From assembly GCA_043825735.1 (NCBI GenBank), contig JBDRRP010000107.1, positions 62,001 to 126,000 on the forward strand: a stretch of DNA of 64,000 nt, in the 5' to 3' direction. Position numbers and translations under genes: made by a program. The stretch is from Pseudomonadota bacterium. Lineage in GTDB: Bacteria; Desulfobacterota; Desulfobacteria; Desulfobacterales; JBDRRP01. Positions 30,317 to 47,741 of this stretch are shown here, piece after piece; the stretch's first letter is position 1; the number at the start of each line of letters is the position of its first letter. Under the pieces are notes generated by a model that worked only from the letters and a program-made list of their open reading frames with translations, had not been told where the DNA came from and searched no databases.

Positions 30317-30326
30317 GGGGAATCCC

Positions 30327-30342: not shown

Positions 30343-30539
30343 TAGCGGACTCGCCGTCAATTGTCAATATTCGAGTCATTGTTCTGCAGTATTGAATATG
30401 CCAATGACGGCGCAGAAGAATATCAATATTATCGTTTTGACAATCAGCGGCCGATTTTCCAGTATCCCATGCCGAAAGCCATGATTGCAGGCCTCAGCGC
30501 CGTCGGCTGTGGCGCTGTTGGTTGGAATGGCCTTTTTTA

Positions 30540-30631
30540 AGGGGCAACGGTGCTGGGCACCCCGCGGTCTTCAAAACCGTCGGCCTCGTCTAATTAACGA
30601 GGAGGAGGTTCGATTCCCCTTGCCCCTTCCA
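30540..30631 (+). tRNA. non-canonical UCA-anticodon tRNA (selC*/tRNA-ReC type; 8/4 fold, U73; predicted Cys acceptor)
   Basis: Acceptor AGGGGCAA/TTGCCCCT (8 bp) + T discriminator + encoded CCA; D arm GGTGC-TGG-GCACC; anticodon arm GCGGT-CTTCAAA-ACCGT; variable arm CCTCGT/ACGAGG; T stem GG(A bulge)GG-TTCGATT-CCCC (4 bp). Confidence 0.9.
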
Positions 30632-30651
30632 CTTCTTTTCATCGGACACCC

Positions 30652-32577
30652 ATGGAACAGCATTACACGATCGGATTCGCCGGTCATGTCGATCACGGTA
30701 AAACGACACTGGTAAGGTGCCTGACAGGCATCGATACCGATCGGCGGCCCGAAGAAAAGCGCCGGGGCCTGTCGATAGAGGCGGGCGTGGCCCCGCTGCG
30801 TCTGCCGTCCGGTCGCACCGTGGCGGTGGTGGATGTCCCCGGTCACGTCGATTTTTTAAAAAACACCATCCGGGGGCTCAACGGCATCGATCTGGGCGTT
30901 CTGGTTATCGCCGCCGACGATGGCGTCATGCCGCAGACCTTGGAGCATCTTGAAATCATGAAGTTCTTCAAGGCATCTTCAGGGCTGGTGGTTCTGAGCA
31001 AGACGGATCTGGTGGACGATGAAACGGTGGACATCGCTGAGCTGGAAGTAAAAGACCTGCTCGACGGCACCTTTTTAGACCACCGGATCATTTCCCGATT
31101 CACGGCGAAACAACCGGAGCGCACCGCTGAAATCCTTGCGCGTATCGACGTCATGCTGAGCGCGCTTCCGGTCAAAAATGTGCAAAAGCCGTTTCGGTTG
31201 TGGATCGATCAGACAAAACGCATTCCCGGTCACGGGACCGTTGTGAGCGGGACCGTTGCCTCCGGAGTCGTCGCTGCAGGAGATGAGATCGTGCTCTTGC
31301 CGGCTGGAAAGAAAACGCGCGTGCGCTCACTGGAATCGCATGGCATGCCGGTATCCCACGCCATCGCAGGACAACGGGTCGGCATCAACCTGCACGGGAT
31401 TTCCATCATCGAAGCCTGCCGGGGAATGAGTCTGGCCCCACCCGATGCCCTTCTGCCGACATTTATGCTCAATGCGGATGTGCACACCGTCGCAACGGCA
31501 AAGCAAGGCATCAATCACAGGCAGCGTGTAAAGCTCTATCTGGGGACCTCGGTCACCACGGCGCTGGCGATTGTGATGACCGGAGATCGCCTTGACCCGG
31601 GGGAAACCGGTCTCGTCCAGTTTAGACTGACCAGACCGGTGGCGGCATTGCCACAGGACGCGTTCGTGGTTTCACCGATGAATCTGAATACCGTGATCGC
31701 CGGCGGCCGTGTGCTCGAGGCGCCCCGTGAAAAGTATCGGGCCGCCAAAGCCGGTGCGATCGTCCCGTTGCTCTCGGCGCTTAAAGACAGCGACGTGGAT
31801 GCCTACGTCACACGCAGCTTCGATGCCGACCGGGGCCATTTCATTACCGCGAAGGGACTTTCGGAAAAGACCGGGCTGCCGCAGTTGGGGTTCGAGCGGC
31901 GCATTACCGCGAAGGTCCAAAAAGGAGAGCTGGTTTACTTTAAAAACCGCGGTGCCATCAGCGCAAGCCATCTGTCCGATCTCGGGCATGAAATCCGGCA
32001 GGTCGTCACGGACGCTTTCCAGAAAGACCCACTCAAAAGAAACGTCACAGCGGCGGAGATTGCCGAGCGGTTGGGCCACCCGGTATCGGAAGCGGTGCTT
32101 GCCATCGCCGTGGCGTCGCTGTGCAAAGCGGGCAAGCTGAGCCGGTTCGAAGGCGGGCTTTTGCTTCCCAATACCGAATCCATGATGGATGCTGAGCGGG
32201 AGGCGCTCAAATTGCTTCTGCTCGATTTTGCGCGGCAGTCCGTACTGGTCCCATTCAGTGCCGATACGTTCTGTAAACTGAACAACGGGCGCTACGATAA
32301 GAAAGATGTCGGCCAGCTGCTCAATTTCATGTCGGTCAGAAAACTGCTGGTGCGGTTGAATGACGGCCGATTCCTGTCACCGGAAGCCATCGAGACCATC
32401 AAGGTGCGGGTGGAAAAGGCGATCGCGGCGCGCGGATTCATCACAGTGGGCGACTGCAAGGAACTGCTCGGCTACGGGCGCTGGGGCGGCACCCACGTGC
32501 TCGACTACCTGAACCACATCGGGTTTACCGTGCGCCGGCAAGACAAACACGTGCTCAAGGCGGCGACCCGATCGTGA
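30652..32577 (+). CDS. selB: SelB-type elongation factor, divergent paralog (SelB*)
   Basis: [26 protein letters not shown]-terminal winged-helix region ending [19 protein letters not shown]; non-canonical IDQ and GRW motifs. Confidence 0.9.
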
Positions 32578-33827
32578 GCATCCACGTCCTTAACACGCTT
32601 TCCCGTTGCAAGGTCCCACTGGTTCCCATAGCACCGGGCAGGCTGAAGATCTATCTGTGCGGCCCGACCGTCTATGACGATCCCCATCTCGGCCATGCCC
32701 GCTCGGCGGTCGTCTTCGACGTGATTGTCCGCTATCTGAGGGCGCTCGGTTTTGCGGTGACCTATGTGCGCAACATTACCGATATCGACGACAAGATCAT
32801 CACCCGGGCGCATGCGCTGGGGCAGGACTACCGGCACCTGGGCGCGCGATGCACCGCCCGCTATCGATCCGCCATGGCTCGACTGAACACTTGCTCCCCC
32901 GATGCCGAACCCAGGGCCACGGCCCATATCCGGCCGATCCAGGGGGCCATTGCCCGGCTGATTCAAAACGGGCATGCCTATCCGGCAGGCGGCGATGTGT
33001 ATTTTTCCGTCGCCTCCTTTCCGCGTTATGGCCGGCTTTCGGGGAGCGCCGCCCCCCGGCCGATGCGGGACGCCGGCGGGAACGATGGCACCCCCAAACG
33101 CCACCCGGCTGATTTCGCCTTGTGGAAAAGCGCCTTTGCCGGAGAACCGTCCTGGCCAAGCCCCTGGGGTCCGGGGCGTCCCGGTTGGCATATCGAGTGC
33201 TCGGCCATGAGTGCGCACCTTCTGGGAGATGTCTTCGATATCCACGGCGGTGGTGCGGACCTGATATTTCCCCATCACGAAAACGAGATCGCCCAGTCGG
33301 AGAGCATTTCCGGGCAAACACCGGCAGTGTACTGGCTGCACCACGGCATGGTCACCGTCCACGGGGAGAAGATGTCCAAGTCGACGGGCAACGGATTGAA
33401 CCTGCTGGATCTGCTGGCGCGCCATCATCCGGATGCGCTGCGACTGCTGCTGCTCTCCAAGCGATACCGGCACCCGTTGGCGGTATCGGATGCCGCAATG
33501 GCCTCTGCGGACGGAAGCGCCGCGCGGCTTAACCGGTTGTTCGCACACCCCGCCGTGCCGGCCCGATTGTACGACCCTGACGGGGCGGGAAAAAGTTTTC
33601 TTTGGACACGGTTTTGCAGCGCCATGAACGATGACTTCAACTTTCCCATGGCGATTTCGGTGGTGTTCGACGGCGTCAGGCTGCTTTACCGGCGGTGGCA
33701 TCTGCGGCCGGCGGCCGGCGCCTTTGCGGGCGATGAAGACCCGGCGCGCCTGCTCTGTGACCTGACGTTCATCTGCAGGGATATCCTCGGACTCCGGATA
33801 AACGACGAAGACCCGTGTTCTCCGTGA
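32574..33827 (+). CDS. cysS: cysteinyl-tRNA synthetase lacking the C-terminal anticodon-binding domain (CysRS*)
   Basis: CGPTVYDDPHLGHAR, PGWHIECSAM, DLIFPHHENE, KMSKS, DDFN; ends at ...DILGL (417 aa); GTGA overlap with the selB stop. Confidence 0.9.
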   Translation: MSIHVLNTLSRCKVPLVPIAPGRLKIYLCGPTVYDDPHLGHARSAVVFDVIVRYLRALGFAVTYVRNITDIDDKIITRAHALGQDYRHLGARCTARYRSAMARLNTCSPDAEPRATAHIRPIQGAIARLIQNGHAYPAGGDVYFSVASFPRYGRLSGSAAPRPMRDAGGNDGTPKRHPADFALWKSAFAGEPSWPSPWGPGRPGWHIECSAMSAHLLGDVFDIHGGGADLIFPHHENEIAQSESISGQTPAVYWLHHGMVTVHGEKMSKSTGNGLNLLDLLARHHPDALRLLLLSKRYRHPLAVSDAAMASADGSAARLNRLFAHPAVPARLYDPDGAGKSFLWTRFCSAMNDDFNFPMAISVVFDGVRLLYRRWHLRPAAGAFAGDEDPARLLCDLTFICRDILGLRINDEDPCSP

Positions 33828-33930
33828 CTGGTGATCACAATGCCATCAGGGCCGCCGGTTTTTGACACTAAACTGGAGCTTCATAGAGAAGCGGAAAAAA
33901 CTATTGGAATAACACCCAAAGGAGAAGATC

Positions 33931-35208
33931 ATGAGTGACGACTATCGTTCGATGTGGACGGATCTGGGGCTCGACCTCGATGCGCACGATGCGCTGCTGG
34001 GCGTTCTCGGCAAAGGGTATCAGGACATTTTTCTCAGCCAGAAGGACCGACCCGAGGGGATGGGATATTTTGACTTCGTGATGAGCGAGGTTCACGGGCT
34101 CCGGATCAAGGAGCTTTTAGACGAGAAAGCCGCCGGCCGCAAGATCATCGGTTCTTACTGCGTCTTTGTTCCGGAGGAGATCGTGCTGGCGGCCAACGCC
34201 ACTCTGGTGGGGCTGTGCTCCGGCGCCGATTTCGCCACGGAGGATGTGGAAAAACTGCTGCCGCGAAACACCTGCGCTCTCATCAAGTCCTCCTTCGGCT
34301 TTAAACTCGGCAAGGTCTGCCCGTATCTGGAAAGCGCCGACATGATCGTCGGCGAGAACACCTGCGACGGGAAGAAAAAAGCCTATGAGACGCTGGGCCA
34401 TCTGGTGGGCAATCTCTATGTCATGGACCTGCCCCAGGTGAAGTCCGGTGGCGGCAGGGCGCTGCTCAAGGCAGAATACGGGCGCTTCAAGACGGCCGTG
34501 GAAGCGTTGACCGCTGTTGCCGTCACCGCTGATTCCCTGAAGCAGGCCATTCGGACGGTCAATGCGAAGCGTGCCGCTATCCATCGGATCTCGTCTCTGC
34601 GAAAAGCGGATCCGGCACCGATCTCGGGTCTGGATGCCCTGTTGGCGAACCAGGTTTTCTTTTACGACAACCCTGCCAGATTTACGGAATCTGTAAACAA
34701 GATCTGTGATGAGCTGGAACAGCGGATTGAAAATAAAAAGGGCGTTTTTCCGGCAAACACTCCCCGCATTCTCGTGTCCGGGTGCCCCCAGGCAGTACCC
34801 AATTGGAAACTGCCCATGATTGTGGAATCCGTCGGTGCGGTAATTGTGGGCGAGGAATCTTGCGTGGGCGAACGCGGTACTCGCAACCTGACCGATGACT
34901 CGGGTGAAACGGTGGATGAAATGTTGGACGCCATCGTTGACCGTTATTTCCAAGTGGACTGCGCTATTTTTACCCCCAATCCGGACCGCCTGGCCCATAT
35001 CCAGGAAATGGTCGCCGCTTACAAAGCCGACGGGGTGATCCACTACGGTCTGCAGTTCTGCCAGCCCTATCTCATGGAATCCATGCCCGTGGAAAAAGCC
35101 TTGGAGGAAAAGAGTATCCCCTGCCTGCGCATCGAGACCGATTACAGCATGGAGGATGTCGGCCAGTTGAAGACACGCGTTGAAGCGTTTGTCGAGCAGC
35201 TTCGCTAA
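33931..35208 (+). CDS. 2-hydroxyacyl-CoA dehydratase-family protein (double-cubane cluster reductase-like)
   Basis: YCVFVPEE, LPRNTCALIKS, ENTCDGKKK, SGCP, EESCVGER, QFCQ, IETDYS...TRVEAF. Confidence 0.88.
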   Translation: MSDDYRSMWTDLGLDLDAHDALLGVLGKGYQDIFLSQKDRPEGMGYFDFVMSEVHGLRIKELLDEKAAGRKIIGSYCVFVPEEIVLAANATLVGLCSGADFATEDVEKLLPRNTCALIKSSFGFKLGKVCPYLESADMIVGENTCDGKKKAYETLGHLVGNLYVMDLPQVKSGGGRALLKAEYGRFKTAVEALTAVAVTADSLKQAIRTVNAKRAAIHRISSLRKADPAPISGLDALLANQVFFYDNPARFTESVNKICDELEQRIENKKGVFPANTPRILVSGCPQAVPNWKLPMIVESVGAVIVGEESCVGERGTRNLTDDSGETVDEMLDAIVDRYFQVDCAIFTPNPDRLAHIQEMVAAYKADGVIHYGLQFCQPYLMESMPVEKALEEKSIPCLRIETDYSMEDVGQLKTRVEAFVEQLR

Positions 35209-35230
35209 GACATAAGGAAGGCAGACGAAG

Positions 35231-35992
35231 ATGCTTTTTGCCGGAATAGATATCGGCTCTCGCACCATCGAACTGGTGGTGGTGGATGACGCGGGTAAAA
35301 TAAAAGCCGGTCTTCAGGCGGACACCGGCTTTGACCCGATAGCCGAAGCAAAAAAGTTGGTGGATGGCGTCCGCTACGATCGAATTATGGCCACCGGCTA
35401 TGGTCGCAACCTGTTCGAGATCTCTTTTGACGCGCCAACGGTCACCGAAATCAAAGCCCATGCCAGGGGCGCCCGGGTGTTTTTCCCTGATACCCGAACC
35501 GTGCTGGATATCGGCGGGCAGGACAGCAAGGCCATTGCACTCTTTGAAAACGGCAAAGTGAAAAAATTCGAAATGAACGACCGGTGCGCCGCTGGCACCG
35601 GTAAATTCCTGGAGATTATGGCAAAAACGCTGGGATATGACATCGAAGCATTCGGACGGGAAGCGCTGCTTGCCGAAAATGATCTCAATATTTCCAGTAT
35701 GTGCACGGTATTTGCCGAATCCGAGGTCACCTCTTTGATCGCCAGGGGCCAACGGCCCCGGGAAATCGCGAGGGGCTTGCATGCCAGCGTCGTTCGCCGG
35801 GCAGTCGGCATGCTCAACCGCGTCTCCTCCGAGGGTGCGATCGTCTTCACCGGCGGGGTGGCGAAAAACCCCTGCATGCTTGCCCTTCTCGAAGAAAAAC
35901 TGGGCCGAACGGTGCTTGTGCCGAAAGACCCGCAAATGATGGGGGCGCTGGGAGCGTCCCTTCTGGCGAGTGAACTCCCTTCATGTGGATAG
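35231..35992 (+). CDS. ATP-dependent activase (BadF/BadG/BcrA/BcrD, HgdC-type)
   Basis: GIDIGS, ATGYGR, DIGGQDSK, MNDRCAAGTGKFLE, SMCTVFAESEV. Confidence 0.93.
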   Translation: MLFAGIDIGSRTIELVVVDDAGKIKAGLQADTGFDPIAEAKKLVDGVRYDRIMATGYGRNLFEISFDAPTVTEIKAHARGARVFFPDTRTVLDIGGQDSKAIALFENGKVKKFEMNDRCAAGTGKFLEIMAKTLGYDIEAFGREALLAENDLNISSMCTVFAESEVTSLIARGQRPREIARGLHASVVRRAVGMLNRVSSEGAIVFTGGVAKNPCMLALLEEKLGRTVLVPKDPQMMGALGASLLASELPSCG

Positions 35993-36921
35993 ACAGATTT
36001 CAACGCCTGGGATTGCTGATTTTTCTTTTTCTCATGAGCGCCTTTTTTGGCTGTATGTCTCCATATTTTGCGACCTGGGAAAACCTTGCCAACATTCTGG
36101 TGCAGTCGGCGGTGCTAATCATCGTCGGCATCGGAATGATCCTGGTGATCGCAACCGCCGGCATCGATCTTTCCATAGGCTCCGTCCTGGCATTGAGCGG
36201 CATTGTCATGGCCGCCTCGATGAAAGCCGGGCTCGGTATTCTCGCTGGTATTTTCGCGGGTGTCCTGACGGGTGTCTTGATGGGGCTTTTCAACGGGCTG
36301 GGCACCGCCGTGCTCGGCATTTCCCCCTTTATCGTCACATTGGGTGCCGCTGGAATATACAGAGCTCTGGCCCTCATCGCCACCGATGCACGGCCGATCT
36401 ACGGACTTCCGGTTGCATTTCGTGTCGTCGCCACCGGGCACCTGGGTCCTTTCCCCCTGCCGGCCGTTTTTGCGTTTGCCGTGGTGGGCCTCGCTGCGCT
36501 GATCATCGGATGGACCCGGTTCGGCATCAACGTGCGGGCCGTCGGGGACAATGCAGTGGGCGCTTTTCGAATGGGGGTACCCGTTCGGGGGGTGCTGATT
36601 TCGGTGTACATGATTTCGGGTGCCACCGCAGCCCTGGCCAGCATTGTGGTTACGGCGAGATTGAATACTGCCGAGGCCATCGCAGGGCTTGGCATGGAAC
36701 TGGAGGCCATCGCCGCAGTGGTTATGGGCGGAACCAGCTTTTTCGGCGGAGAATCCAGCATCAGCGGGACGCTGTTGGGCGCCCTGATCATCGGCACTCT
36801 GGCCAACGGGCTGACCCTTGTCAACGTGCCATCCTATTACCAGCAACTGGTGATCGGAGCTGTGTTCATACTGGCCGTCATGGCCGACAAAATGAGAAGG
36901 CAGGCAACAAACACCTTTTGA
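35983..36921 (+). CDS. monosaccharide-type ABC transporter permease (RbsC-like)
   Basis: GIDLSIGS, PFIVTLG, ELEAIAAVVMGGTS. Confidence 0.93.
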   Translation: MWIDRFQRLGLLIFLFLMSAFFGCMSPYFATWENLANILVQSAVLIIVGIGMILVIATAGIDLSIGSVLALSGIVMAASMKAGLGILAGIFAGVLTGVLMGLFNGLGTAVLGISPFIVTLGAAGIYRALALIATDARPIYGLPVAFRVVATGHLGPFPLPAVFAFAVVGLAALIIGWTRFGINVRAVGDNAVGAFRMGVPVRGVLISVYMISGATAALASIVVTARLNTAEAIAGLGMELEAIAAVVMGGTSFFGGESSISGTLLGALIIGTLANGLTLVNVPSYYQQLVIGAVFILAVMADKMRRQATNTF

Positions 36922-36936
36922 AAGGAGCGGTACATC

Positions 36937-37648
36937 ATGAAGTCTGAACGGACAGAAGTATTGGGGGCTGTGATCGCAGCCGTTCTGATCGTGGGCCTCG
37001 TCCTCTGCACCGTCGTATCGGCAGCGGAATACTCCAGATGGCAAAAAGTCCGATCCGAAGCTTTTTCCAAACTGGGAGATATTCCTCACGCCGGCAAGCC
37101 GCTGCGCATCGGCGCCATTATCATCACCGAGGCCAATCCCTTCTGGGTGACCGTCAAAGAGGGCTATATTGCTGCGGCCAACGATCTCGGTGTGCAAATG
37201 GACGTCCAGGCGGCCCCCCAGGAAAACAGTATCGCGGCCCAGTTGGATATCATGGAAAACATGGTGGCAAAGCACTACGACGCCATCGCGGCCCACAGCA
37301 TCACCCGCCACAATCTCATCCCGGGTCTGGTGAAGGCGGCCCAACAGGGAATTCCCACCATTACCGACAGTATCCGTGATGGCCCTGGCCGCGGTTTCGG
37401 CCGTCGAAGATAAGGGCAAAAAGGGGCAGGTCATGGTCGTCGGCATCGACTTCATCGCACAGGCAAAAGATGCGATTAAAGAGGGAAGACTCACGGCGTC
37501 AGTCGCACAGGCCCCTTTCATCATCGGGGAGCTGTGCACCCGGGCAGCCGTGAAAGCGGCAGCCGGCCAAAAAGTGCCCAGGGAACTGTATATCCCGGTC
37601 GTTCTGGTCACCGCCGACAACGTCGGCGAATTCAGCGACTGGAAATAG
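36937..37648 (+). pseudogene. sugar ABC substrate-binding protein (RbsB-like) with internal deletion and frameshift
   Basis: N-half (NPFWVTVKEG...GIPTITD) jumps at about 37376 into another frame encoding the C-terminal end (MALAA...VVGID...ASVAQAP); the middle of the domain is missing. Confidence 0.8.
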
Positions 37649-37676
37649 TCCTGCAGCCGGATGAGCATGAAAGACA

Positions 37677-38429
37677 ATGCCCGAACCGCTCGTGTACATG
37701 AAGGACATCCAAAAAGACTTCGGAGGCAAGACCGCCCTGGATCGGGCCGATCTTTCCCTTTACGAGGGGGAAATCCTTGGCCTGGTGGGTGACAACGGGG
37801 CGGGAAAATCTACGATGCTCAAGGTTCTCTCCGGCGTTCTGAACCGAAACGCCGGAGAGATCTTTATGGCGGGCGAAAAGATCCACATCGATTCTCCGGT
37901 CCATTCGAGAAATTTGGGCATAGAGATGGTGTTTCAGGATCTCTCGCTTTGCGAGAGCCTGACCGTTTGGGAAAATGTCTACCTGGGCCGCTATGCGATC
38001 CGGTCCGCTTTCAAACACCTGGCACCGATCCTGGACAAGCGTGAAATGGCGCGGCGCACGGTCGACGCCCTGGCGGAGATGGGAATCTCCCTGCCCGATG
38101 TCGGCGTTCCGGTTCGCAATCTGTCCGGGGGCGAAAGGCAGGCCGTGGCCATATGCCGCTGCCTGCTGTTCCATCCCCGGGTCATTTTATTGGACGAACC
38201 CACGGCCAGCATGGCCCACTGGGAGCAGCAGAAGGTGTTGGAACTGGTTCGCGCGTTCAAGGCCCGGGGATGTTCCGTTATCATGGTCACCCACAACCTC
38301 GGGCAGTTGTTTCAGGTGGCGGACCGAACGGTGGTCATGAGAGAGGGCCGGAGCATATGGCAGGGGGCAATGACGGACCTGACCCAGGACGATCTGGTGC
38401 GGATGATGTTTCTTGGAAAACAGGGATGA
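37677..38429 (+). CDS. sugar ABC transporter ATP-binding protein
   Basis: GDNGAGKST, LSGGERQ, LLDEPT, H-loop VTHN. Confidence 0.95.
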   Translation: MPEPLVYMKDIQKDFGGKTALDRADLSLYEGEILGLVGDNGAGKSTMLKVLSGVLNRNAGEIFMAGEKIHIDSPVHSRNLGIEMVFQDLSLCESLTVWENVYLGRYAIRSAFKHLAPILDKREMARRTVDALAEMGISLPDVGVPVRNLSGGERQAVAICRCLLFHPRVILLDEPTASMAHWEQQKVLELVRAFKARGCSVIMVTHNLGQLFQVADRTVVMREGRSIWQGAMTDLTQDDLVRMMFLGKQG

Positions 38430-38797
38430 CAACCTTGGATCTGCCGCAGCTTCCGGATGAATTCGAAGCCTTAGGCAACTGGACGGCCATGATCCGCAAG
38501 CTGCAGCGATTTTTAGAAGAAACCTTTGACAGAAAAGCTTCGGACCGGGGCATCGAAGCAGCCGTCAAGGGAACAAACCACAAGAATCGAATCATGAGAA
38601 AATGTTTCGATTTCGCCGCCCTTCATCCCCCGTTGATCAGCTGGCAGGAAATGTACGACCTGGTTTTTTTGGCACTACCGTGCACGGCAGAGGACTTTAT
38701 CCCCATTGTCGAGCCCCTGATGGAAAAGCTTGAACGGAGAAAAACGGAAGGATTTCATTACGGCCGAGCCGATTCTCCCATTTGTAATGACGGATGA
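38426..38797 (+). pseudogene. internal fragment of a second 2-hydroxyacyl-CoA dehydratase/double-cubane-family gene
   Basis: LDLPQ...KLQRFLEE...IEAAVKGTN...PPLIS aligns by eye with MDLPQ...LKQAIRTVN...PAPIS of 33931-35208; both ends missing. Confidence 0.65.
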
Positions 38798-38801
38798 AAA
38801 T

Positions 38802-39035
38802 ATGGACCTGAAACCAAGCCAGCACTTGAACTTTGTATTCGTCTGCCCGGAATGCAACCGTGTTTTTGAAACCGCCGCGTTCAGCATCGTTGACAACCGG
38901 GGAGTGGTCACCGATGCCGACGGCAACAAAGCGCTGGATGCGACGGTGGCCCTGAACGATCCGTGTCCGTATTGCGGGCAGCGGCATGTTTACCCGGCCA
39001 GTGAGCTGTTGTGCCCATTCAGGGGCGCGCAGTGA
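38802..39035 (+). CDS. small CxxC...CxxC metal-binding protein
   Basis: CPEC and CPYC motifs, C-terminal LCPF; directly upstream of selD. Confidence 0.7.
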   Translation: MDLKPSQHLNFVFVCPECNRVFETAAFSIVDNRGVVTDADGNKALDATVALNDPCPYCGQRHVYPASELLCPFRGAQ

Positions 39036-39105
39036 TTGAATTGATCCGAAAAACCCCTCCAGGCCCTGTCACGGGTTCTGGAGACCCCACATAAGGAGGC
39101 TGCGC

Positions 39106-40158
39106 GTGGGAACCCTTAAGAACAAGCGTTTGACCGAAACGGTGTCCGGCGCCGGCTGAGCGTCCAAACTCTCTCCGGGGGACCTGGACAACGCGCTGTG
39201 CGGCCTTGATTTTCCCACTGATGAAAACGTCCTTGTCGGACTGGAGCGTGCCGACGATGCCGGCGTGTACCGGATCAGCGATGAGATCGCGCTCATTCAG
39301 ACGGTGGATTTTTTCACTCCGGTGGTGGACGACCCGCACGCCTTCGGCCGGATCGCCGCCGCCAATGCGCTCAGCGACGTCTACGCAATGGGCGGCGTGC
39401 CCAAAACCGCCATGAACCTGGTGGCTTTTCCCGTGAAGGAGATGGACCTTTCGGTGCTGCGGCAGATCATCCAGGGCGGCATCGACACGCTTCGCGAGGC
39501 GGGCGTGGTGCTCATCGGCGGCCACAGCATTGAGGACAAGGAGCTGAAGTATGGCCTGTCCGTTACGGGTCTCATCCATCCTGACCGGGTGCTGACCAAA
39601 AAGGCGCTGCGCGCCGAAGACGCGCTGATCCTCACCAAGCCGCTCGGAACCGGCGTGATCAACACGGCCATCAAGGCCCGCATGGTATCGCCGGACCTGG
39701 TGGATCGGATTACCCGGCTCATGGCGACGCTGAACCGGTGTGCTGCCGAAGTCATGGCCGATTTCCCGGTCACCGCCTGTACGGACGTCACCGGTTTTGG
39801 GCTTTTGGGGCACCTTGCAGAGATGGTCGAAGGCTCCGGTTGCGGTGCGTCGCTCTCCGCCGGGCGGATTCCGATAATGGCCGAAGCCCTTGATTTCGCC
39901 CGCATGGGACTCATCCCCGCCGGCGCCTACCGCAACCGCGCTTTCCGGGAGGCGATGATCACTGTCGATGCCGGGGTGGATCGGGCCGTGGCCGATCTGT
40001 GCTTTGATCCCCAGACCTCCGGCGGGCTGCTCATGGCGGTGCCAACGGCGCAGGCGGGTGATCTGGTGTCGGCACTGCGGGCCGCCGGCGTGCCCGATGC
40101 AGCGCTCATCGGCCATGTCCTGCCGGGGCCGGCGGAAGTGATCCGTGTGATGGTTTAA
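39106..40158 (+). CDS. selD: selenide, water dikinase (Sec-containing)
   Basis: AAGGAGG SD + GTG; ...VSGAG-TGA(39157-39159)-ASKL...; DDAG, TVDFF, ANALSDVYAMGG, TDVTGFGL, DPQTSGGL. Confidence 0.96.
39162..39189 (+). promoter_or_regulatory. putative SECIS of selD
   Basis: GTCCA...TGGAC outer stem enclosing a pyrimidine/G-run upper stem, immediately 3' of the UGA. Confidence 0.6.
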
Positions 40159-40172
40159 CGGGTGGTGCTTGG

Positions 40173-40235
40173 TTCTGGAGGGCCACGCGCCGTCGTGGCC
40201 GCGAATCGAACGCGAGGGACCGCGTCCCTCCAGAA
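40173..40235. repeat. REP-like palindromic element
   Basis: TTCTGGAGGG...CCCTCCAGAA terminal inverted repeat with internal GCCACG/CGTGGC hairpin. Confidence 0.6.
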
Positions 40236-40447
40236 GGCTTTGACCCGTCGGGGTGTCTGGGTGTCATGATCCCGGGGCGGGCCATGACCGCGACCGCGCG
40301 CGTGATGGCCGGCGGCAACACGATAAAAGGGCGGCGGCAGTCTAATACCCGTTGCGGCGCGGCTGAAACGAAGTTCCGGCATGATGCCTCTGCTTGAGCC
40401 AGGTGCATCAACAAATATTCCATTTTTCCGTAGAGGAGGTTCATCCC

Positions 40448-41047
40448 ATGAAAGAAATCGATGCCAGGGGGCTGGCTTGTCCGGCGCCTGTTTTGATGGC
40501 CAAAGCCGCTGTGGAAAACGAAGGGGCGCCGGAGGTGACGGTACTGGTGGACAACGCGGCCTCACAGCAGAACGTTCAGCGGTTTCTGGAAAGCCGTGGT
40601 TTTGAAACGCTCCTGGCGCAGGAGGGTGACAATTTCCGGGTGACCGGCCGCGGCAACGGCAAGCCGCAGGCGGCGGCGCAGCCGGCAGCTGCCGCTCCGG
40701 CTCCCGGCGCGCGCCGGCTCATGGTCATGGCGGCCACCGACCGCATCGGCGCCGGCGATGACGTTCTTGGTAAAAAACTCATGGTCAACTTTATCCGGAC
40801 CTTGAACGAAATGGGCCCGGATCTCTGGCGGCTGGTGTTCGTCAACAGCGGCGTTTCGCTGACTATCGACGACTCCCCGGTGCTCGATGCCTTGAAGGCG
40901 CTGAAAGACGCCGGCGTGATCATTCTTGTGTGCGGCACCTGCCTGGATCACTTCAAGCTCCTGGAGCGGAAACAGGTGGGCGTGACCACCAACATGCTCG
41001 ACATCGTCACGGCCATGCAACTGGCCGACTCGGTGATCAACCTGTAA
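40448..41047 (+). CDS. yedF: selenium metabolism protein YedF (TusA-like + DsrE-like)
   Basis: IDARGLACPAPV (TusA CPxP), FVNSGV, VCGTCLDHF, VGVTTNMLDI; follows selD. Confidence 0.9.
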   Translation: MKEIDARGLACPAPVLMAKAAVENEGAPEVTVLVDNAASQQNVQRFLESRGFETLLAQEGDNFRVTGRGNGKPQAAAQPAAAAPAPGARRLMVMAATDRIGAGDDVLGKKLMVNFIRTLNEMGPDLWRLVFVNSGVSLTIDDSPVLDALKALKDAGVIILVCGTCLDHFKLLERKQVGVTTNMLDIVTAMQLADSVINL

Positions 41048-41153
41048 GCAGCTTCTCATGCTGCGAAGCGGCCTGCTTTTCCGGATAGGCACAATTCACC
41101 AGTTAAGGGTTTGTCTGTTTCGCAGGGGAGGGGAGGGGCTACACCAAGAAACC

Positions 41154-41666
41154 GTGATACGATCGATCCATAGAACGCCCAAATTCGACAAATGCCTGGC
41201 CGGGCTGGAATTTGCCGGAAAGAAAGCGGCCGTTGCCGCCGGAAAGGCCCGTGATATCATCGACGGCATCGCCCGCTATGGCAGCATACCGCCGAAATAT
41301 GTCGCCGAGACCACAAAGCACGGCGAGAGGCGCATCAGAAACTGCGTGAAGTACGATCTGGGCGGCGGCTACCGGATGGTGACCGTCAAACGGGAAGCGG
41401 GCCTTCACCTGGTGTTTATCGGGACCCATGACGAGGTCCAGCGGTGGATCCAGAACAAGAAGAACCGTCGCATCGAAGTACCGGATGAAAACCTGCCGGC
41501 CATCGAAGCAAGCGCCGTCGATATCCCGATCCAAGCAGCTTTCTCTCCTCCGCAGGATCATGCCCATAGCGACTTCGAAGACCTTTCCGTGGTGCCCGAC
41601 GACCGGCTGTTGAGGCGGATATTTTGCGGCATAGCCGGGTGCGCCGCCGATCGCGGCGACCGGTAG
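41154..41666 (+). CDS. hypothetical protein, RelE/ParE-like fold suspected
   Basis: HRTPKFDKCL...KYDLGGGYRMVTV...VFIGTHDEV pattern resembles RelE-fold domains; start uncertain (41058 or 41154). Confidence 0.55.
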   Translation: MIRSIHRTPKFDKCLAGLEFAGKKAAVAAGKARDIIDGIARYGSIPPKYVAETTKHGERRIRNCVKYDLGGGYRMVTVKREAGLHLVFIGTHDEVQRWIQNKKNRRIEVPDENLPAIEASAVDIPIQAAFSPPQDHAHSDFEDLSVVPDDRLLRRIFCGIAGCAADRGDR

Positions 41667-42013
41667 TGGGAGAAGGGCGAAAGCACGCTCTCCGGTTAAA
41701 GGGCATGGATTTTACCTAAAGAAGTCCACCGGAGACCGCCGCTCACTGCGTCGCCGCCACGGTTCGATTTTTACAAAGAATGCACCAAGGTGAGGCGCAT
41801 TGGAATGGATTATAGACACTCCCTGACGTTTGTGCGTCATCTGAACAGACCAATGATAGGCGGTTGTCCACAGGGTGCCTGGGCAAATCTGAATGGATCA
41901 CTTTCGAGGAATGAGTATCGGAAATGACCGTAATGAAAAATAAAGGATTGGATCGGTAAGCTCGATCTTTCCGGGGACAGTGAAAGTTGCGCATAGGATA
42001 ATCATTGTTGAAT

Positions 42014-42120
42014 CTATTCCTCATTGTAAACATCCATACGAAGTCCCCTGATGGGCATTGGCAATTCGGGGCTTACATCACAGGGCAGTCCCCCAGCTTC
42101 GAGAAACAGCACCTCGTTCT
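42014..42120 (-). pseudogene. GAF-domain gene remnant paralogous to the adjacent kinase
   Basis: Translates NEVLFLEAGGLPCDVSPELPMPIRGLR vs NEVLFLDAGGMPCDVDPNLPMPIRGFR in 42306-45593. Confidence 0.8.
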
Positions 42121-42305
42121 TGTATGGCTTCGCATAAGCGAGTACCCAATTCGTCCCTGATTATTGATTTTGCTGCCAGTTTCTGTATCTCTTGAACCAT
42201 CGTTTCTTTTAAAGCATCGTTGAACATGTTTATCTCATATCTTCATTACAGAAATCCGATAACGCAAATGTCTTCACGAAAAATCATATACTTAAACGCT
42301 CAACA

Positions 42306-45300
42306 TCAGGATTTCTTTTGAGTTCCGACTTTGGCTTCATCAAGCACTTTCCTGATCGTTTTGGCCATTTCCGCTTTAACGATCGGTTTCATTAGAAAGC
42401 CTTTGACGCCGATACTTGCAGCCTTCACCGGATCAAGTCTTTCGCTGAATCCAGTGCAAATGATTATCGGGATATTGGGCCTGATGTCAATCAACTGGTG
42501 GGCCAATTGTTCGCCTGTCATGTTAGGCATAGACATGTCGGAAATGACCAGGTCAAATCCGTCGGGGTTTGCTTTGAACGCTTCAAGGGCCTCCAAGCTG
42601 TTTACACGCATGGTCACCTTGTACCCGAGTCGTTCAAGCATTTGTTTTTCCAACTTGGATATCGCCTCTTCATCGTCTATCAGAAGAATTCGTTCATGTC
42701 CTAACGAGACGTCTTCTTCCCTCCCGACTGATTCAGATGCCTCATCTTTCGCCATCATGGGCAGGTAGACGCTGAAAGTCGATCCTTTTCCGAATTCGCT
42801 GCGGACCTTTATATCACCGTGATGCTCTTTTACGATTCCATAGACGACAGCCAACCCCAGACCAGTGCCCTTTCCTTGCTCCTTAGTGGTGAAATAGGGC
42901 TCGAAGATTTTTTCCAGAATTGGAGGGGCGATGCCGACACCCGTGTCGGAAACGGACAGTACCGCATATCTGCAGGGTTCCAAGGCGCCGGGGGGAAGTT
43001 CATCAACCCCCAAGATCACCTCCTTCAAATGGATGGATATCTCACCGCTCGACGTTTCTACAGCGTGATAGGCGTTGGTGATTAGGTTCATCGCAATCTG
43101 ATGGATCTGGGTGGGGTCTGCCAAAACCATGCTGCAATCGTGTTGAATATCCTGTGTGATGTTTATGTTTGCAGGAATCGTCGAACGGCTCAACTTGATA
43201 ACCTCCTTCAATACATGCTGAATACGAACGGGTATCATTTTCTGGTCGGATTGGCGGCTGAAAGCAAGAATCTGTTTCACCAGATCACTCCCCCTTCTGC
43301 CAGCCTTGAAAATCTCTTTGGTATTTTCGTATTCCACACTTCCGGGTGCAAAATCCTCCATCAGCATTTCGGACAGACCGACGATGGGAAAAAGTATATT
43401 ATTGAAATCATGGGCTATGCCGCCTGCCAGGTTGCCGATGGATTCCATTTTCTGGGCTTGCAGCAGTCTTTTCTCCATGTTTTTCATTTCAGTAATATCA
43501 GTGGCGACTTGGAGTCGAACCATTCTGCCGTCCATCCAATCAATGGCCCTGTCATGGTTGATGTACCAGCGACCGGTGACGGGATTCTTATCCTGCCATA
43601 CCGCAGCACCGACCGCATTGCCGTTTGCATCGAGAAGTCGATCGTTCGTGCAGTGAGGGCAGGGAGTTTTCTCGTTTCTGAAAGCCGCATAACATGCCTC
43701 CCCGGTCAGGTCTCGACCGTACGCATTTTTCATAGTCTTGTTCATGAACAGAATTTCGTGTGTTTCCATATCTGCGACATACACCGTGGCATCAATGCCG
43801 TCCAAAACCGTGAGAAATCTTTTATGGGCATCTTTTAGCTCTTTCTCTGATCGTTTTCGTTCGGTTATGTCAAGCGAAACGGACAAAACTGCGGGGACTT
43901 TCGAAGGACCGAAATCAATTGGTTTGAGCGTGTTGGAAAACCATGTGTCGCCTTTTTGTAAATGAACCAAAACTTCCTGGGAAGATGGTTCATTTGACGA
44001 ATAAACTTCTTGGTATTTCCCAATAAGCTGCTCAGCTTGATTTTCGGGTAAGAATTGCCGGATGTTTTTTCCGGTTATATCATCCAATTTCCCGTCGGAC
44101 AAATTGCGGGCAGCGTTTCGATTGGCATAAAGAAAAACACCGTTCAGATCGATTACGGAAAGCGTTTCAAACATCGTCTCGGTAAGTTGCCGATATTTGA
44201 GATCGCTTTCTTTCAACTCATTTTCATGCCGCTGGCGCTCGCTGACGTCGATACCAAGGCAGGTTACATCCAATATCTCCCCCCGTGCATCCTTTGTCAG
44301 CACATTAGACCATGCGATGGTTCTCAATTCGCCATTTCTTGTCAGAATCTCGTTTTCATAGCCAGTAAATTCAGACGCGTCCTTTTTCCTGAGTACAGTT
44401 CTGAACACACCCCGGATTTCTTCTCTGATCGGTTCCGGAATGAACATGTCAAACCAGTTTTGGCCGATCACCTCGTTAACCGACCAACCCGTGAGGGATA
44501 AGAAATGTTCGTTCGCAAAGACAATTTCGCCCTTTGGATTCAGCGAAATTCCGACTTGCGGGGTCTTGGTGAGTATATTACGCCATTTGCGCTCCGAATC
44601 GGTCAGCGCTTCCACGGTCTGTTTGAATTCGGTAATGTCTAACCCGATACCATCCCAGATGATGCTTCCGTCATCTAACTTTCTGGGGATGGATGATGCA
44701 GAAATCCAGACAGTTTCGCCATTTTTCTTATGGACACGATGTTCAACATTGTATGGCGTCAATGCTGCGGCGGAGTTCATTATCGCCTCATGGACGATAC
44801 CGGCGTCCGGTTGCGGTATTAGGTCGAACACAATGTTTGCGTCAGCCATAACATCGGTTGCACTGACACCAAACAGCCCGATACAGTTCTCTCCTATGTA
44901 TTCGAATCGAAAATTTCCGTTTGGGGCGAGAAGGAATTGATAAGCTGTTCCGGGAAGATTCGAGACAAGATGCCGGTATTTTGTTTCACTATCCCTTAAT
45001 GAATCTTGCGACTTAGCATAGGTAAGCGCTACAGCAGCCAAATCACCCAGGATTTTCGATAAATAAACGTCCTTCTCATTGAACCCCCCGGGTTTGTTGG
45101 CAATTCCAATGATCCCTACCGTTTTTTCCTCAATGCTCAGGGGAGCGAAAAGGACGTTATCAAGTCTCACATGCCCTTCCGGCATATATTTCATCCACGG
45201 GCTCTCTGAAAAAGCGTTGTCGTAGACCACATCATTTGTTTTATAGGCGATTTCTCTAAAGCCCCTTATCGGCATGGGAAGATTCGGATCGACGTCACAC

Positions 45301-45593
45301 GGCATTCCACCCGCATCTAAAAAAAGCACCTCGTTCTCTTCACCATTTTCAGAAAGAAGGGAGACATATCCTGAACGCGCACCTGTAAGCTGCTTGCATA
45401 GCGCGAATATTTCCTCGGCGGCATCGTCGAATGTTTCACATAGCGGAATATACCGGAATGCCTCCATAAGAGCAGAGAGCATCTCCGGCGAATATTTTAA
45501 TCCTGATTTCCCTGTCTCATATTGCTCGACTTGTCGTTCAAGTTCCGCAATCCGTTTCTCTAACTCTTCATAGGTGGGCTTTGAACTCATCAT
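42306..45593 (-). CDS. cytoplasmic hybrid sensor kinase (GAF, multiple PAS, HisKA, HATPase, REC)
   Basis: GGIAHDFNN, DTGVGI, GTGLGLAVV, REC DLVISDMSMP...KP; several PAS-PAC ends (DITE/DVSE). Confidence 0.93.
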   Translation of the reverse strand: MMSSKPTYEELEKRIAELERQVEQYETGKSGLKYSPEMLSALMEAFRYIPLCETFDDAAEEIFALCKQLTGARSGYVSLLSENGEENEVLFLDAGGMPCDVDPNLPMPIRGFREIAYKTNDVVYDNAFSESPWMKYMPEGHVRLDNVLFAPLSIEEKTVGIIGIANKPGGFNEKDVYLSKILGDLAAVALTYAKSQDSLRDSETKYRHLVSNLPGTAYQFLLAPNGNFRFEYIGENCIGLFGVSATDVMADANIVFDLIPQPDAGIVHEAIMNSAAALTPYNVEHRVHKKNGETVWISASSIPRKLDDGSIIWDGIGLDITEFKQTVEALTDSERKWRNILTKTPQVGISLNPKGEIVFANEHFLSLTGWSVNEVIGQNWFDMFIPEPIREEIRGVFRTVLRKKDASEFTGYENEILTRNGELRTIAWSNVLTKDARGEILDVTCLGIDVSERQRHENELKESDLKYRQLTETMFETLSVIDLNGVFLYANRNAARNLSDGKLDDITGKNIRQFLPENQAEQLIGKYQEVYSSNEPSSQEVLVHLQKGDTWFSNTLKPIDFGPSKVPAVLSVSLDITERKRSEKELKDAHKRFLTVLDGIDATVYVADMETHEILFMNKTMKNAYGRDLTGEACYAAFRNEKTPCPHCTNDRLLDANGNAVGAAVWQDKNPVTGRWYINHDRAIDWMDGRMVRLQVATDITEMKNMEKRLLQAQKMESIGNLAGGIAHDFNNILFPIVGLSEMLMEDFAPGSVEYENTKEIFKAGRRGSDLVKQILAFSRQSDQKMIPVRIQHVLKEVIKLSRSTIPANINITQDIQHDCSMVLADPTQIHQIAMNLITNAYHAVETSSGEISIHLKEVILGVDELPPGALEPCRYAVLSVSDTGVGIAPPILEKIFEPYFTTKEQGKGTGLGLAVVYGIVKEHHGDIKVRSEFGKGSTFSVYLPMMAKDEASESVGREEDVSLGHERILLIDDEEAISKLEKQMLERLGYKVTMRVNSLEALEAFKANPDGFDLVISDMSMPNMTGEQLAHQLIDIRPNIPIIICTGFSERLDPVKAASIGVKGFLMKPIVKAEMAKTIRKVLDEAKVGTQKKS

Positions 45594-47684: not shown

Positions 47685-47741
47685 TTTTTCCTCCGTTGTT
47701 TACGTAAAAATTATGCGTAAATGGCGAGCCTGTCAAGGGTG

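What the first reader, a model, noticed from the sequence alone, without database searches (positions are those of the whole stretch)
30540..33827. Dedicated UGA-to-cysteine recoding module: 8/4 tRNA(UCA, U73) + divergent SelB + anticodon-blind CysRS
Seen: the tRNA has a UCA anticodon and a long variable arm like tRNA-Sec. But it has an 8-bp acceptor (A1:U72), a 4-bp T stem with a bulged A, and a U73 discriminator. It sits 20 nt before a selB paralog, which is translationally coupled (GTGA) to a 417-aa CysRS that keeps the HIGH/KMSKS and zinc motifs but ends before the anticodon-binding domain. Established: bacterial tRNA-Sec is 8/5 with G73; U73 is the main CysRS identity element; CysRS normally reads the GCA anticodon with the missing domain. 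From memory, this matches the rare selC*/tRNA-ReC, SelB*, CysRS* system reported by Mukai, Vargas-Rodriguez, Soll and colleagues, so it is rare rather than wholly new. Inference: a backup path that puts Cys at Sec codons when selenium is scarce. Standard pipelines would likely mislabel it as plain selC/selB/cysS.
Basis: partly seen in the sequence, partly recalled or inferred. Interest (0 to 1): 0.92.

Follow-up and report, generated by a model that had tools for sequence, protein, structure and literature searches.

The report
Cysteine-at-UGA recoding gene module
A selenocysteine-like tRNA sits beside its own elongation factor and its own cysteine-charging enzyme, a set that most likely puts cysteine at selenocysteine UGA codons; it is real, but this kind of system was described in 2017.

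Summary
Window 30540-30631 is a 92-nt tRNA(UCA) with an 8-bp acceptor stem (A1:U72), a 4-bp T stem with a bulged A, U73 and an encoded CCA. Twenty nt downstream lies a SelB paralogue (30652-32577). Its stop overlaps (GTGA) the start of a 417-aa CysRS (32574-33827). This CysRS keeps HLGH, KMSKS and the Zn ligands, has lost the canonical CP1 motif, and ends before the anticodon-binding domain.

The genome also holds canonical selA, selB, selC (8/5, G73), tRNA-Cys(GCA) and a full-length cysS.

This is the Desulfobacterales selC*-selB*-cysS* system of Mukai et al. 2017 (PMC5389517). The tRNA differs at 4 of 92 nt from the tested Desulfococcus biacutus tRNA. It is a new member of a known kind.

New context found here:
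- The module lies in a ~19.7-kb segment absent from a same-genus genome.
- It is linked to a double-cubane reductase, its activase, a UGA-containing selD and yedF.
- cysS* occurs only in genomes whose housekeeping CysRS is a divergent "type B".

Cys insertion through SelB* in the native host remains untested.

The parts
30540..30631 (+). selC* / tRNAReC: 92-nt tRNA(UCA), 8/4 form, A1:U72, bulged A in the T stem, U73, encoded CCA
   Evidence: Covariation in the alignment of 26 homologues. 4 of 92 differences from the D. biacutus selC* tRNA printed in the supplement of PMC5389517 (compared by eye).
30652..32577 (+). selB*: SelB paralogue, 641 aa
   Evidence: Pfam and NCBIfam. 30% identity to the genome's canonical SelB. 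Falls on the SelB* side of a split with 100% SH-aLRT support. Pocket signature W184/Q187/S199/G244.
32574..33827 (+). cysS*: 417-aa CysRS without the anticodon-binding domain and without the canonical CP1 motif; its start overlaps the selB* stop (GTGA)
   Evidence: Lies inside the CysRS* clade.
33931..35208 (+). Double-cubane-cluster reductase (NF040772, 468 bits), 103 nt after cysS*; conserved neighbour
   Evidence: Stands directly after selB* or cysS* in 13 of 34 loci at 76-90% identity.
35231..35992 (+). Acyl-CoA dehydratase-type activase (BcrAD_BadFG), partner of the reductase
39106..40158 (+). selD with in-frame TGA at 39157-39159 (motif GAG-U-ASK); start GTG 39106 behind AAGGAGG
   Evidence: Orthologues linked to the module in 4 other genomes carry the same in-frame stop.
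40394..41047 (+). yedF (selenium metabolism sulfurtransferase-like protein, TIGR03527, 206 bits)
30363..50046 (.). ~19.7-kb segment present here and absent from the same-genus genome G062. It holds everything above plus ABC transporter genes (one broken), a hybrid histidine kinase, ParE/Phd and PIN genes.

Best explanation
This is a selC*(tRNAReC)-selB*-cysS* operon of the Desulfobacterales type. It is a self-contained second decoding route for selenocysteine UGA codons that inserts cysteine.

Proposed steps:
1. The tRNA is made with the selB*-cysS* message. This is inferred from the 20-nt spacing and the overlapping genes.
2. CysRS* charges the tRNA with Cys. It would use U73 and the A1:U72 pair through an altered CP1 region, and ignore the UCA anticodon because it has no anticodon-binding domain. 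This is inferred from the anatomy. It is supported by the published engineered ABD-deletion/PTVS variant acting on the near-identical D. biacutus tRNA.
3. The genome's housekeeping CysRS is of a divergent "type B" and is presumed not to serve this tRNA. This is inferred from a correlation across genomes.
4. The 8-bp acceptor stem directs Cys-tRNA to SelB*. Its aminoacyl pocket is remodelled and its C-terminal winged-helix part is kept, so it would deliver the tRNA to UGA codons followed by a SECIS hairpin. This is inferred.
5. Selenoproteins are then made as Cys forms when Sec-tRNA is short.

A likely prime client is the UGA-containing selD 5.3 kb downstream. Both selD genes of this genome need UGA decoding, so a Cys route would let selenophosphate synthesis restart without pre-existing selenium.
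For: Anatomy of the three genes.

Match to the published system (PMC5389517; passages and supplement):
- Same order, selC*-selB*-cysS*, with cysS* overlapping selB*.
- A1:U72 plus UCA.
- CysRS* without the ABD and with a changed CP1.
- tRNA 88 of 92 identical to the D. biacutus tRNA, for which opal suppression with Cys and the 8/4 form were shown.

tRNA structure. 98.3% of cells are paired, 12 pairs change on both sides, and 0 of 500 shuffles are as good. Pair 8:81 is kept by a G:C change where the 7/5 alternative 64:81 breaks.

Trees. SelB* splits from canonical SelB with 100% SH-aLRT support. The 11 CysRS* rows form one clade (94%) inside a type-A CysRS clade (98%).

SelB* pocket. E. coli D180/R181/R236 correspond to D186/Q187/R242 here. 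Q replaces R in 21 of 23 SelB*, while 21 of 23 canonical SelB keep R.

The canonical Sec and Cys machinery is all present elsewhere in the genome.

CysRS typing of 34 SelB*-bearing genomes. Of the 12 with a full-length cysS*, 11 have a type-B and none a type-A housekeeping CysRS. Of the 21 without cysS*, 18 have type A. The 34th, G378, has only truncated copies.

All 5 module-linked selD genes carry the in-frame TGA.
Against: No aminoacylation, SelB* binding or Cys-at-UGA measurement exists for this locus or for any native CysRS*/SelB* pair that I could read.

[quoted passage not shown] Their suppression assay worked through EF-Tu in E. coli, so the need for SelB* is unproven.

A 2026 paper still calls the partition between tRNASec and tRNAReC unclear (PMC13582414).

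The CysRS-type correlation has exceptions. G049 and G047 have type B without cysS*, and G336 is ambiguous. It also rests on related genomes, which are not independent.

The evidence for 8/4 over 7/5 from covariation is a single lineage.
Confidence: 0.75

Rival explanations
1. General opal suppressor. Cys-tRNA(UCA) is carried by EF-Tu and reads UGA codons without any SECIS. SelB* would only buffer or sequester the tRNA.
For: In E. coli the D. biacutus tRNA suppressed a UGA with EF-Tu recognition (PMC5389517 supplement text). No SelB*-hairpin interaction has been shown.
Against: The 8-bp acceptor stem is the known determinant that shifts a tRNA from EF-Tu to SelB (review PMC7609411). A SelB* gene follows the tRNA at about 20-23 nt in the loci whose coordinates I compared (window, L107, L109), and 31 of 33 loci have the tRNA just upstream of it. 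SelB* keeps a winged-helix C-terminus (SelB-wing_3 28 bits, cut-off 23) that is well conserved within the family. Unrestricted UGA read-through would be costly.
Confidence: 0.12
2. A second genuine tRNA-Sec route: the tRNA is serylated and converted to Sec (a tRNAReU-like case), with SelB* as a second Sec factor.
For: ARAGORN and Rfam score it as tRNA-Sec. It has a long variable arm.
Against: The discriminator is U73, not G73, while the genome's own selC has G73 and the 8/5 form. A dedicated CysRS is translationally coupled to SelB*. The tRNA is near-identical to the D. biacutus tRNA that was cysteinylated. The SelB* pocket lacks the R181 equivalent.
Confidence: 0.03
3. A decaying or inactive remnant: CysRS* is dead, as its silence in E. 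coli suggested.
For: The report of no activity in E. coli. Pseudogene versions exist in other genomes (supplement legend S15; truncated cysS* in G378; T-stem G-to-C change in G049).
Against: All three genes are intact here. HLGH, KMSKS and the Zn ligands are invariant or nearly so across 24 CysRS* sequences. 92 short-form clusters persist at 52-62% identity.
Confidence: 0.05
4. A non-translational use of Cys-tRNA or of the CysRS-like enzyme. Examples are an MshC-type cysteine ligase, or a Cys/Se donor for the adjacent double-cubane reductase, selD and yedF genes.
For: MshC is a CysRS homologue of similar length without an ABD. The module is tightly linked to selenium-metabolism genes.
Against: NCBIfam MshC scores 269 bits, far below its cut-off of 485, while cysS scores 408 against a cut-off of 340. 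The enzyme is coupled to an elongation factor and to a tRNA with a stop anticodon.
Confidence: 0.04

Closest known systems
selC* tRNACys(UCA)-selB*-cysS* locus of Desulfococcus biacutus and other Desulfobacterales (Mukai et al. 2017, NAR 45:2776, PMC5389517; passages and supplement read)
   Same: - Gene order, with cysS* overlapping selB*.
- 92-nt 8/4 tRNA with A51a bulge, A1:U72, U73 and UCA (88 of 92 nt identical).
- CysRS* without the ABD and without the canonical CP1 motif.
- A complete selABCD set elsewhere in the genome.
   Different: - The proteins are divergent: the best CysRS* match in 5.8 billion proteins is 62% identical. SelB* is 61% identical or less in the sampled genomes, although a 93% relative exists on a short metagenome contig.
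- The CP1 stretch reads PMRD/AGGN rather than the PTVS of D. biacutus.
- The locus lies in a family whose two other sampled genomes lack it.
- The linkage to the reductase, selD and yedF, and the link to CysRS type, are not described in the passages I read. Figures S14 and S15 are pictures that I could not see.
tRNAReC of Desulfotomaculum nigrificans (Vargas-Rodriguez et al. 2018, RNA Biol; not in the library; known to me from citations in PMC13582414 and from recall)
   Same: A Sec-like tRNA with Cys identity that recodes SECIS-UGA as Cys.
   Different: As I recall, that tRNA has a GCA anticodon and uses the host's normal CysRS and normal SelB. Here the tRNA has UCA and its own synthetase and factor.
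Canonical bacterial Sec system (selA, selB, selC, selD)
   Same: A long-armed tRNA(UCA) with an 8-bp acceptor stem, and a SelB-type factor with winged-helix domains.
   Different: Here the tRNA has U73 and the 8/4 form instead of G73 and 8/5. It is charged directly by a CysRS, with no SelA step. The SelB pocket residues are changed.
SelB-like factor MM1309 of Methanosarcina mazei that binds Cys-tRNACys (PMC4329189; title and start of abstract seen in the search listing)
   Same: A SelB-family GTPase that handles Cys-tRNA.
   Different: It is archaeal, has no Sec-like tRNA or dedicated CysRS beside it, and has an unknown role.

Membership tests
selC*/tRNAReC-SelB*-CysRS* system (Mukai et al. 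2017) | Sec-like tRNA with a long variable arm and the 8/4 acceptor/T arrangement with a bulged A in the T stem | tested here: met
   Sequence. 26-sequence alignment: acceptor pairs 1:88, 5:84, 6:83 and 8:81 change on both sides. The alternative 7/5 pair 64:81 breaks where 8:81 is kept. The T-stem pairs never vary, so the 4-bp T stem rests on the sequence and on the published experiment.
selC*/tRNAReC-SelB*-CysRS* system (Mukai et al. 2017) | U73 discriminator, and UCA anticodon with A1:U72 in cysS*-bearing genomes | tested here: met
   All 10 related loci with an adjacent cysS* have A1:U72 and UCA. The 3 loci with G1:C72 have no cysS*.
selC*/tRNAReC-SelB*-CysRS* system (Mukai et al. 2017) | selB* directly downstream of the tRNA, in a clade apart from canonical SelB | tested here: met
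   20-nt gap. 23 SelB* separate from 23 canonical SelB, including the genome's own, with 100% SH-aLRT support. The SelB* rows were chosen as the best hits to the query, so the labels are partly circular.
selC*/tRNAReC-SelB*-CysRS* system (Mukai et al. 2017) | cysS* overlapping selB*; CysRS* lacks the anticodon-binding domain and has a changed CP1 motif | tested here: met
   GTGA overlap. No PF23493 domain, and the protein ends near E. coli residue 410 of 461. The canonical M-x-[AG]-G-A-R-V stretch is replaced. The exact PTVS of D. biacutus is not present.
selC*/tRNAReC-SelB*-CysRS* system (Mukai et al. 2017) | Complete canonical selA/selB/selC/selD in the same genome | tested here: met
selC*/tRNAReC-SelB*-CysRS* system (Mukai et al. 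2017) | The tRNA is cysteinylated and inserts Cys at UGA | not testable with these tools
   Shown only for the D. biacutus tRNA with an engineered D. tiedjei CysRS in E. coli.
Canonical tRNA-Sec (selC) | G73 discriminator and 8/5 arrangement (Ser identity) | tested here: not met
   U73 and 8/4 here. The genome's other tRNA-Sec (C62) has G73 and 8/5.
Housekeeping CysRS | C-terminal anticodon-binding domain (CysS_C) that reads GCA | tested here: not met
   Absent here. Present in the genome's 478-aa CysRS and in its CysM-CysRS fusion.
MshC (Cys:GlcN-Ins ligase) | Score above the NCBIfam equivalog cut-off | tested here: not met
   269 bits against a cut-off of 485.

The most novel reading that the evidence does not exclude
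The three genes are the core of a larger, portable selenium-economy island: selC*-selB*-cysS*, a double-cubane reductase with its activase, a UGA-type selD, and yedF.

Its logic would be to restart selenium use from zero. SelB*, with a winged-helix end that differs from canonical SelB (GRWG where SelB has SRKY), would read a dedicated set of hairpins, first of all the one in the linked selD. This makes a Cys-SelD when no Sec-tRNA exists.

cysS* would be the relic of the original type-A housekeeping CysRS. It would have been kept only in lineages where a type-B CysRS, unable to charge this tRNA, took over housekeeping.
Probability: 0.3. Interest if true: 0.6.

Novelty: new member of a known kind. 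Interest (0 to 1): 0.45.

Why it matters
It is a natural, self-contained orthogonal set of tRNA, synthetase and elongation factor that reassigns a stop/Sec codon. That matters for how selenoproteomes survive selenium shortage, and for genetic-code engineering.

Standard pipelines name all three parts wrongly. As a result, UGA positions in such genomes may be called Sec when they can be Cys.

Two leads here make the open question of what tRNAReC is for more directly testable. One is the linkage to a UGA-type selD and to double-cubane reductase genes. The other is that cysS* is present only where the housekeeping CysRS is type B.

Tried and rejected
Expression.
- No RNA holder was listed for window 30400-33900.
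- Laying runs X1, X6 and X7 gave full cover only in the DNA run, which may be the source of this DNA.
- One RNA-library contig covers only 30601-31 and belongs to a relative's tRNA.
- None of this says anything about expression.

Promoter and terminator scan. One promoter-like site at 30404-30432, no more than the shuffles give. No terminator-like site between cysS* and the reductase gene.

Island mechanics. No copy of the tRNA 3' end elsewhere in the window. No flanking direct repeat. No integrase among the ORFs scanned. No G+C anomaly.

MshC reading: rejected.

Single-sequence fold. RNAfold prefers a 7-bp acceptor stem with A64:U81. The alignment favours 8:81, but through one lineage only.

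Genome-contig scan with the SelB* alignment. It returned mostly canonical SelB; only 4 of the 80 loci kept were at 40% identity or more. The genome search served instead.

SECIS of selD. By eye, a 6-bp hairpin with a GGA loop at about 39174-39188 recurs in the 5 linked selD genes. It overlaps a conserved peptide (PGDL) and RNAfold does not pick it for the window. It is a lead only.

Atlas search for the 202-aa ORF gave only unnamed families and a weak RelE/ParE-like fold resemblance.

Earlier findings of the scan were not open.

Vargas-Rodriguez et al. 2018 is not in the library.
Full report
**1. What is there**

ARAGORN finds a single tRNA in the 64-kb window, called tRNA-SeC(tca), at 30540-30631 on the + strand. 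Rfam's tRNA-Sec model scores it 57.1 bits against a gathering score of 47.

Read from the sequence:
- The first eight bases, AGGGGCAA, pair with UUGCCCCU, so the first pair is A1:U72.
- The next base is U73, and CCA is encoded.
- The T arm is GG(A)GG-UUCGAUU-CCCC, which gives four pairs and a bulged A.
- The variable arm has a 6-bp stem.

Twenty bases after the tRNA starts a 641-aa ORF (30652-32577). It carries GTP_EFTU, EF-Tu domain 2, the SelB beta-barrel and SelB-wing_3.

Its TGA stop (32575-32577) overlaps the GTG (32574) of a 417-aa ORF, giving GTGA. That ORF is a class-I CysRS catalytic domain (384 bits). It has only the first 25 of 57 positions of DALR_2 and no CysS_C anticodon-binding domain.

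The CysRS keeps HLGH (38-41), KMSKS (266-270), and C29, C209, H234 and E238. Naming these four as the zinc ligands is from recall. Against E. coli CysRS (1li5, 461 aa), residues 4-374 align to 3-369, so the protein ends about 50 residues short of the E. coli C-terminus.

**2. The rest of the genome**

The window is contig C107:62001-126000 of a 6.8-Mb assembly in 160 contigs, rated 100% complete. The assembly holds:
- A second tRNA-Sec above the Rfam cut-off (C62, 75.4 bits). It has an 8-bp acceptor stem, a 5-bp T stem and G73.
- A canonical SelB, 30% identical to the window's, with SelB-wing_2 and wing_3.
- selA at 537 bits.
- Two selD genes, each with one in-frame TGA.
- One tRNA-Cys(GCA) with G1:C72 and U73, among 49 tRNAs.
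- A 478-aa CysRS with CysS_C.
- An 851-aa ORF that fuses a CysK/CysM-type cysteine synthase to a complete CysRS.

**3. Comparison with what is known**

Mukai et al. 2017 (PMC5389517) describe this arrangement in a subgroup of Desulfobacterales. I read passages of the main text and the supplement's text and table. Their description covers:
- An (8/4) selC* tRNACys with a bulged A51a, U73, UCA and A1:U72.
- selB* directly downstream.
- A cysS* that overlaps selB*.
- A CysRS* that lacks the ABD and has a changed CP1 motif (PTVS instead of MSGA).
- A complete selABCD set elsewhere in the genome.

The D. biacutus tRNA printed in their supplementary table differs from the window's at 4 of 92 positions. 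These are position 9 and three bases of the variable loop. I compared them by eye.

They showed that this tRNA suppresses the UGA of a selD gene with Cys in E. coli when given an engineered ABD-deletion/PTVS CysRS. The 8-bp stem mattered and the bulge did not. The native CysRS* showed no activity in E. coli.

The name tRNAReC comes from Vargas-Rodriguez et al. 2018. That paper is not in the library. I know it from its citation in PMC13582414 and from recall. PMC13582414 (2026) still calls the partition between tRNASec and tRNAReC unclear.

**4. Tests of membership made here**

CysRS*.
- Of the 119 non-self clusters listed for the CysRS, 92 are 333-453 aa, 52-62% identical and carry no CysS_C annotation. 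The full-length forms start below them at about 50% identity.
- In a 30-sequence alignment the short forms all stop before the C-terminal domain. The canonical M-x-[AG]-G-A-R-V stretch of CP1 is replaced by a variable stretch, which here reads SAAPRPMRDAGGNDGT.
- NCBIfam scores cysS at 408 bits (cut-off 340) and MshC at 269 (cut-off 485). The protein is therefore not an MshC, and a pipeline would name it plain cysS.

SelB*.
- SelB* has more than 120 cluster relatives at 47-93% identity.
- In a tree of 23 of these with 23 canonical SelB, including the genome's own, the two groups split with 100% SH-aLRT support.

Distribution.
- In a sample of 400 other genomes of the same order, 33 have a SelB* at 41% identity or more.
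- Of 33 loci examined, 31 have a 92-nt tRNA(UCA) just upstream. One has a GCA version and one has none.
- Ten have cysS* next to selB*, all with A1:U72. The three G1:C72 loci have none.

tRNA structure.
- On 26 distinct tRNAs the 8/4 structure pairs 98.3% of cells, with 12 pairs changed on both sides. None of 500 shuffles reaches that.
- Pair 8:81 is kept by an A:U to G:C change in the lineage where the rival 7/5 pair 64:81 breaks. This is one event, so it is only weak support for 8/4. The published experiment carries that point.

**5. What distinguishes SelB***

Alignment to E. coli SelB (5lzb) puts D180, R181 and R236 at D186, Q187 and R242 of the window's protein. That these three form the Sec-binding pocket is from recall.

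| Feature | SelB* (23 sequences) | Canonical SelB (23 sequences) |
|---|---|---|
| Pocket motif | RLWIDQ(V/I)(K/R)[10 protein letters not shown] | RLP(V/I)DR(V/A)F..KGFGTV.TGT |
| R181 position | Q in 21 | R in 21 |
| Second pocket motif | GQRVG(I/V)NLH | GQR(T/V)A(I/V)N |
| Last winged helix | G(Y)GRWGG | SRKY |

The pocket is therefore remodelled in a family-wide way. The last winged helix keeps its scaffold (LDYLN..GFT.RR.DKH) but changes one motif. So SelB* probably still binds an RNA hairpin. Whether it binds the same hairpins as SelB is open.

**6. New context: the neighbourhood**

Against the same-genus genome G062, synteny runs from window 19781 to 30362 and resumes at 50047. About 19.7 kb here replaces about 3 kb of unrelated small genes there.

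G062 and the one other genome of the family have no SelB* and no second tRNA-Sec-like gene above the cut-off.

The segment holds, in order:
- selC*, selB* and cysS*.
- A double-cubane-cluster reductase (NF040772, 468 bits) and its activase.
- An ABC permease, a broken substrate-binding gene and an ATPase.
- A small Zn-ribbon ORF.
- selD, with TGA at 39157.
- yedF and a 202-aa ORF of no family.
- A hybrid histidine kinase.
- ParE/Phd and PIN genes.

I found no integrase, no repeat of the tRNA end and no G+C anomaly.

The reductase stands directly after selB* or cysS* in 13 of 34 loci, at 76-90% identity. That is far more conserved than SelB* itself, at 42-61%.

selD and yedF lie within 10 kb of the module in the window and in four further genomes of two other families. 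All five of these selD genes carry the in-frame stop at G-x-G-U.

The genome's two SelD proteins are only 48% identical, and both need UGA decoding.

Haft and Gwadz (bioRxiv 10.1101/2022.07.06.499078; sections 23-24 read) found 955 of 970 NF040772 proteins in SelD-bearing assemblies and had no explanation. The adjacency seen here is a gene-neighbourhood counterpart of that profile.

**7. New context: why a private CysRS**

I checked 14 "type A", 12 "type B" and 6 fusion sequences in a tree.
- CysRS* (11 rows) is one clade (94%) inside a clade with type A (98%).
- It is far from type B (100%, long branch), which includes this genome's housekeeping enzyme.
- Of the 12 genomes with a full-length cysS*, 11 have type B and none has type A. 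The twelfth is 87% complete.
- Of the 21 without cysS*, 18 have type A, two have only type B (G049, whose tRNA has a T-stem change, and G047, where no tRNA was found), and one is ambiguous.
- The remaining genome, G378, has truncated copies.
- G062, the congener without the module, also has type B, 84% identical to this genome's.

The simplest reading is that CysRS* descends from the type-A housekeeping enzyme. It would be kept where a type-B enzyme, presumed unable to charge this tRNA, does the housekeeping.

The caveats are that these genomes are kin, that I drew the groups partly by likeness to the query, and that there are exceptions. The legend of Mukai's Figure S14 colours the housekeeping CysRS of the cysS*-bearing genera apart, so the authors may have seen part of this. 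The figure itself is a picture that I could not read.

**8. Mechanism and verdict**

Shown here:
- The anatomy of the three genes.
- Membership in the family.
- The presence of the canonical machinery elsewhere in the genome.
- The island and its conserved neighbours.

Shown elsewhere, for the near-identical tRNA: Cys-dependent opal suppression and the importance of the 8-bp stem.

Inferred:
- Co-transcription of the tRNA with selB*-cysS*.
- Charging by the native CysRS*.
- Delivery by SelB* to hairpin-marked UGA codons.
- The role under selenium shortage, and the idea that the linked UGA-type selD is a prime client.

The finding is real and correctly interpreted. The neighbourhood and the CysRS-type pattern are modest additions that give testable hypotheses.

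Noticed in passing
own genome C121:~69.7-72.3 kb (locus L010:1252-3807, - strand): An 851-aa ORF fuses a CysK/CysM-type cysteine synthase (cysKM 361 bits, cut-off 344) to a complete CysRS with its ABD (cysS 358 bits, cut-off 340). Long-frame CysRS matches of the same kind (about 760-840 aa) turn up in most of the 34 other genomes of the order that I searched and form their own clade.
   Followed up: partly
window 33931-35992, and loci L108-L112, L114, L116, L117, L131, L027-L029, L180-L183: A double-cubane-cluster reductase (NF040772) and its activase stand directly after selB* or cysS* in 13 of 34 loci at 76-90% identity, often with selD and yedF nearby. This is a gene-neighbourhood link between this enzyme family of unknown substrate and selenium metabolism. 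It fits the SelD co-occurrence reported by Haft and Gwadz in 2022.
   Followed up: partly
window 39106-40158 and own genome C73:10878-11801 (L023): Two selD paralogues, only 48% identical, both with an in-frame TGA at the catalytic position (GAG-U-ASK and TCG-U-AAK). No Cys-type selD was found in the genome with the selD model.
   Followed up: partly
window 36937-37648: The periplasmic binding protein gene of the ABC transporter is in two frames (36937-37413 and 37376-37648). They match profile positions 2-85 and 194-258 of Peripla_BP_4, so the middle is missing and the gene looks broken.
   Followed up: no
window 41058-41666; also L180, L181, L108, L110, L121, L029: A 202-aa ORF with no Pfam or NCBIfam family recurs beside selC*-selB* loci at 34-40% identity. 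The Atlas finds only unnamed Thermodesulfobacteriota families and a weak RelE/ParE-like fold resemblance (TM 0.43-0.45), which is a lead only.
   Followed up: partly
window 46024-46634 and 47019-47453 (- strand): A ParE-toxin/Phd-antitoxin pair and a PIN-domain gene lie inside the variable 19.7-kb segment.
   Followed up: no
locus L120 (G368:C40:940809-945719): A tandem duplication: two identical selC* tRNAs, each followed by a SelB* gene. The second SelB* matches in two pieces (1-152 and 175-376) and runs off the locus.
   Followed up: no
locus L132 (G049, a one-contig genome): The selC* tRNA has a G-to-C change that breaks a T-stem pair. The genome has a type-B CysRS but no cysS*. This may be a decaying copy, like the pseudogenes mentioned in the legend of Figure S15 of PMC5389517.
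   Followed up: no
window 42045-42120 and 45262-45337: An imperfect 76-nt direct repeat (72% identity) lies at the two ends of the hybrid histidine kinase gene.
   Followed up: no
window 30601-30631, RNA-library run X6: One 371-base contig of a metatranscriptome library from the same study as the likely source sample carries the 3' part of a related, non-identical selC*-type tRNA. It may be DNA carry-over, and it shows nothing about this locus.
   Followed up: no
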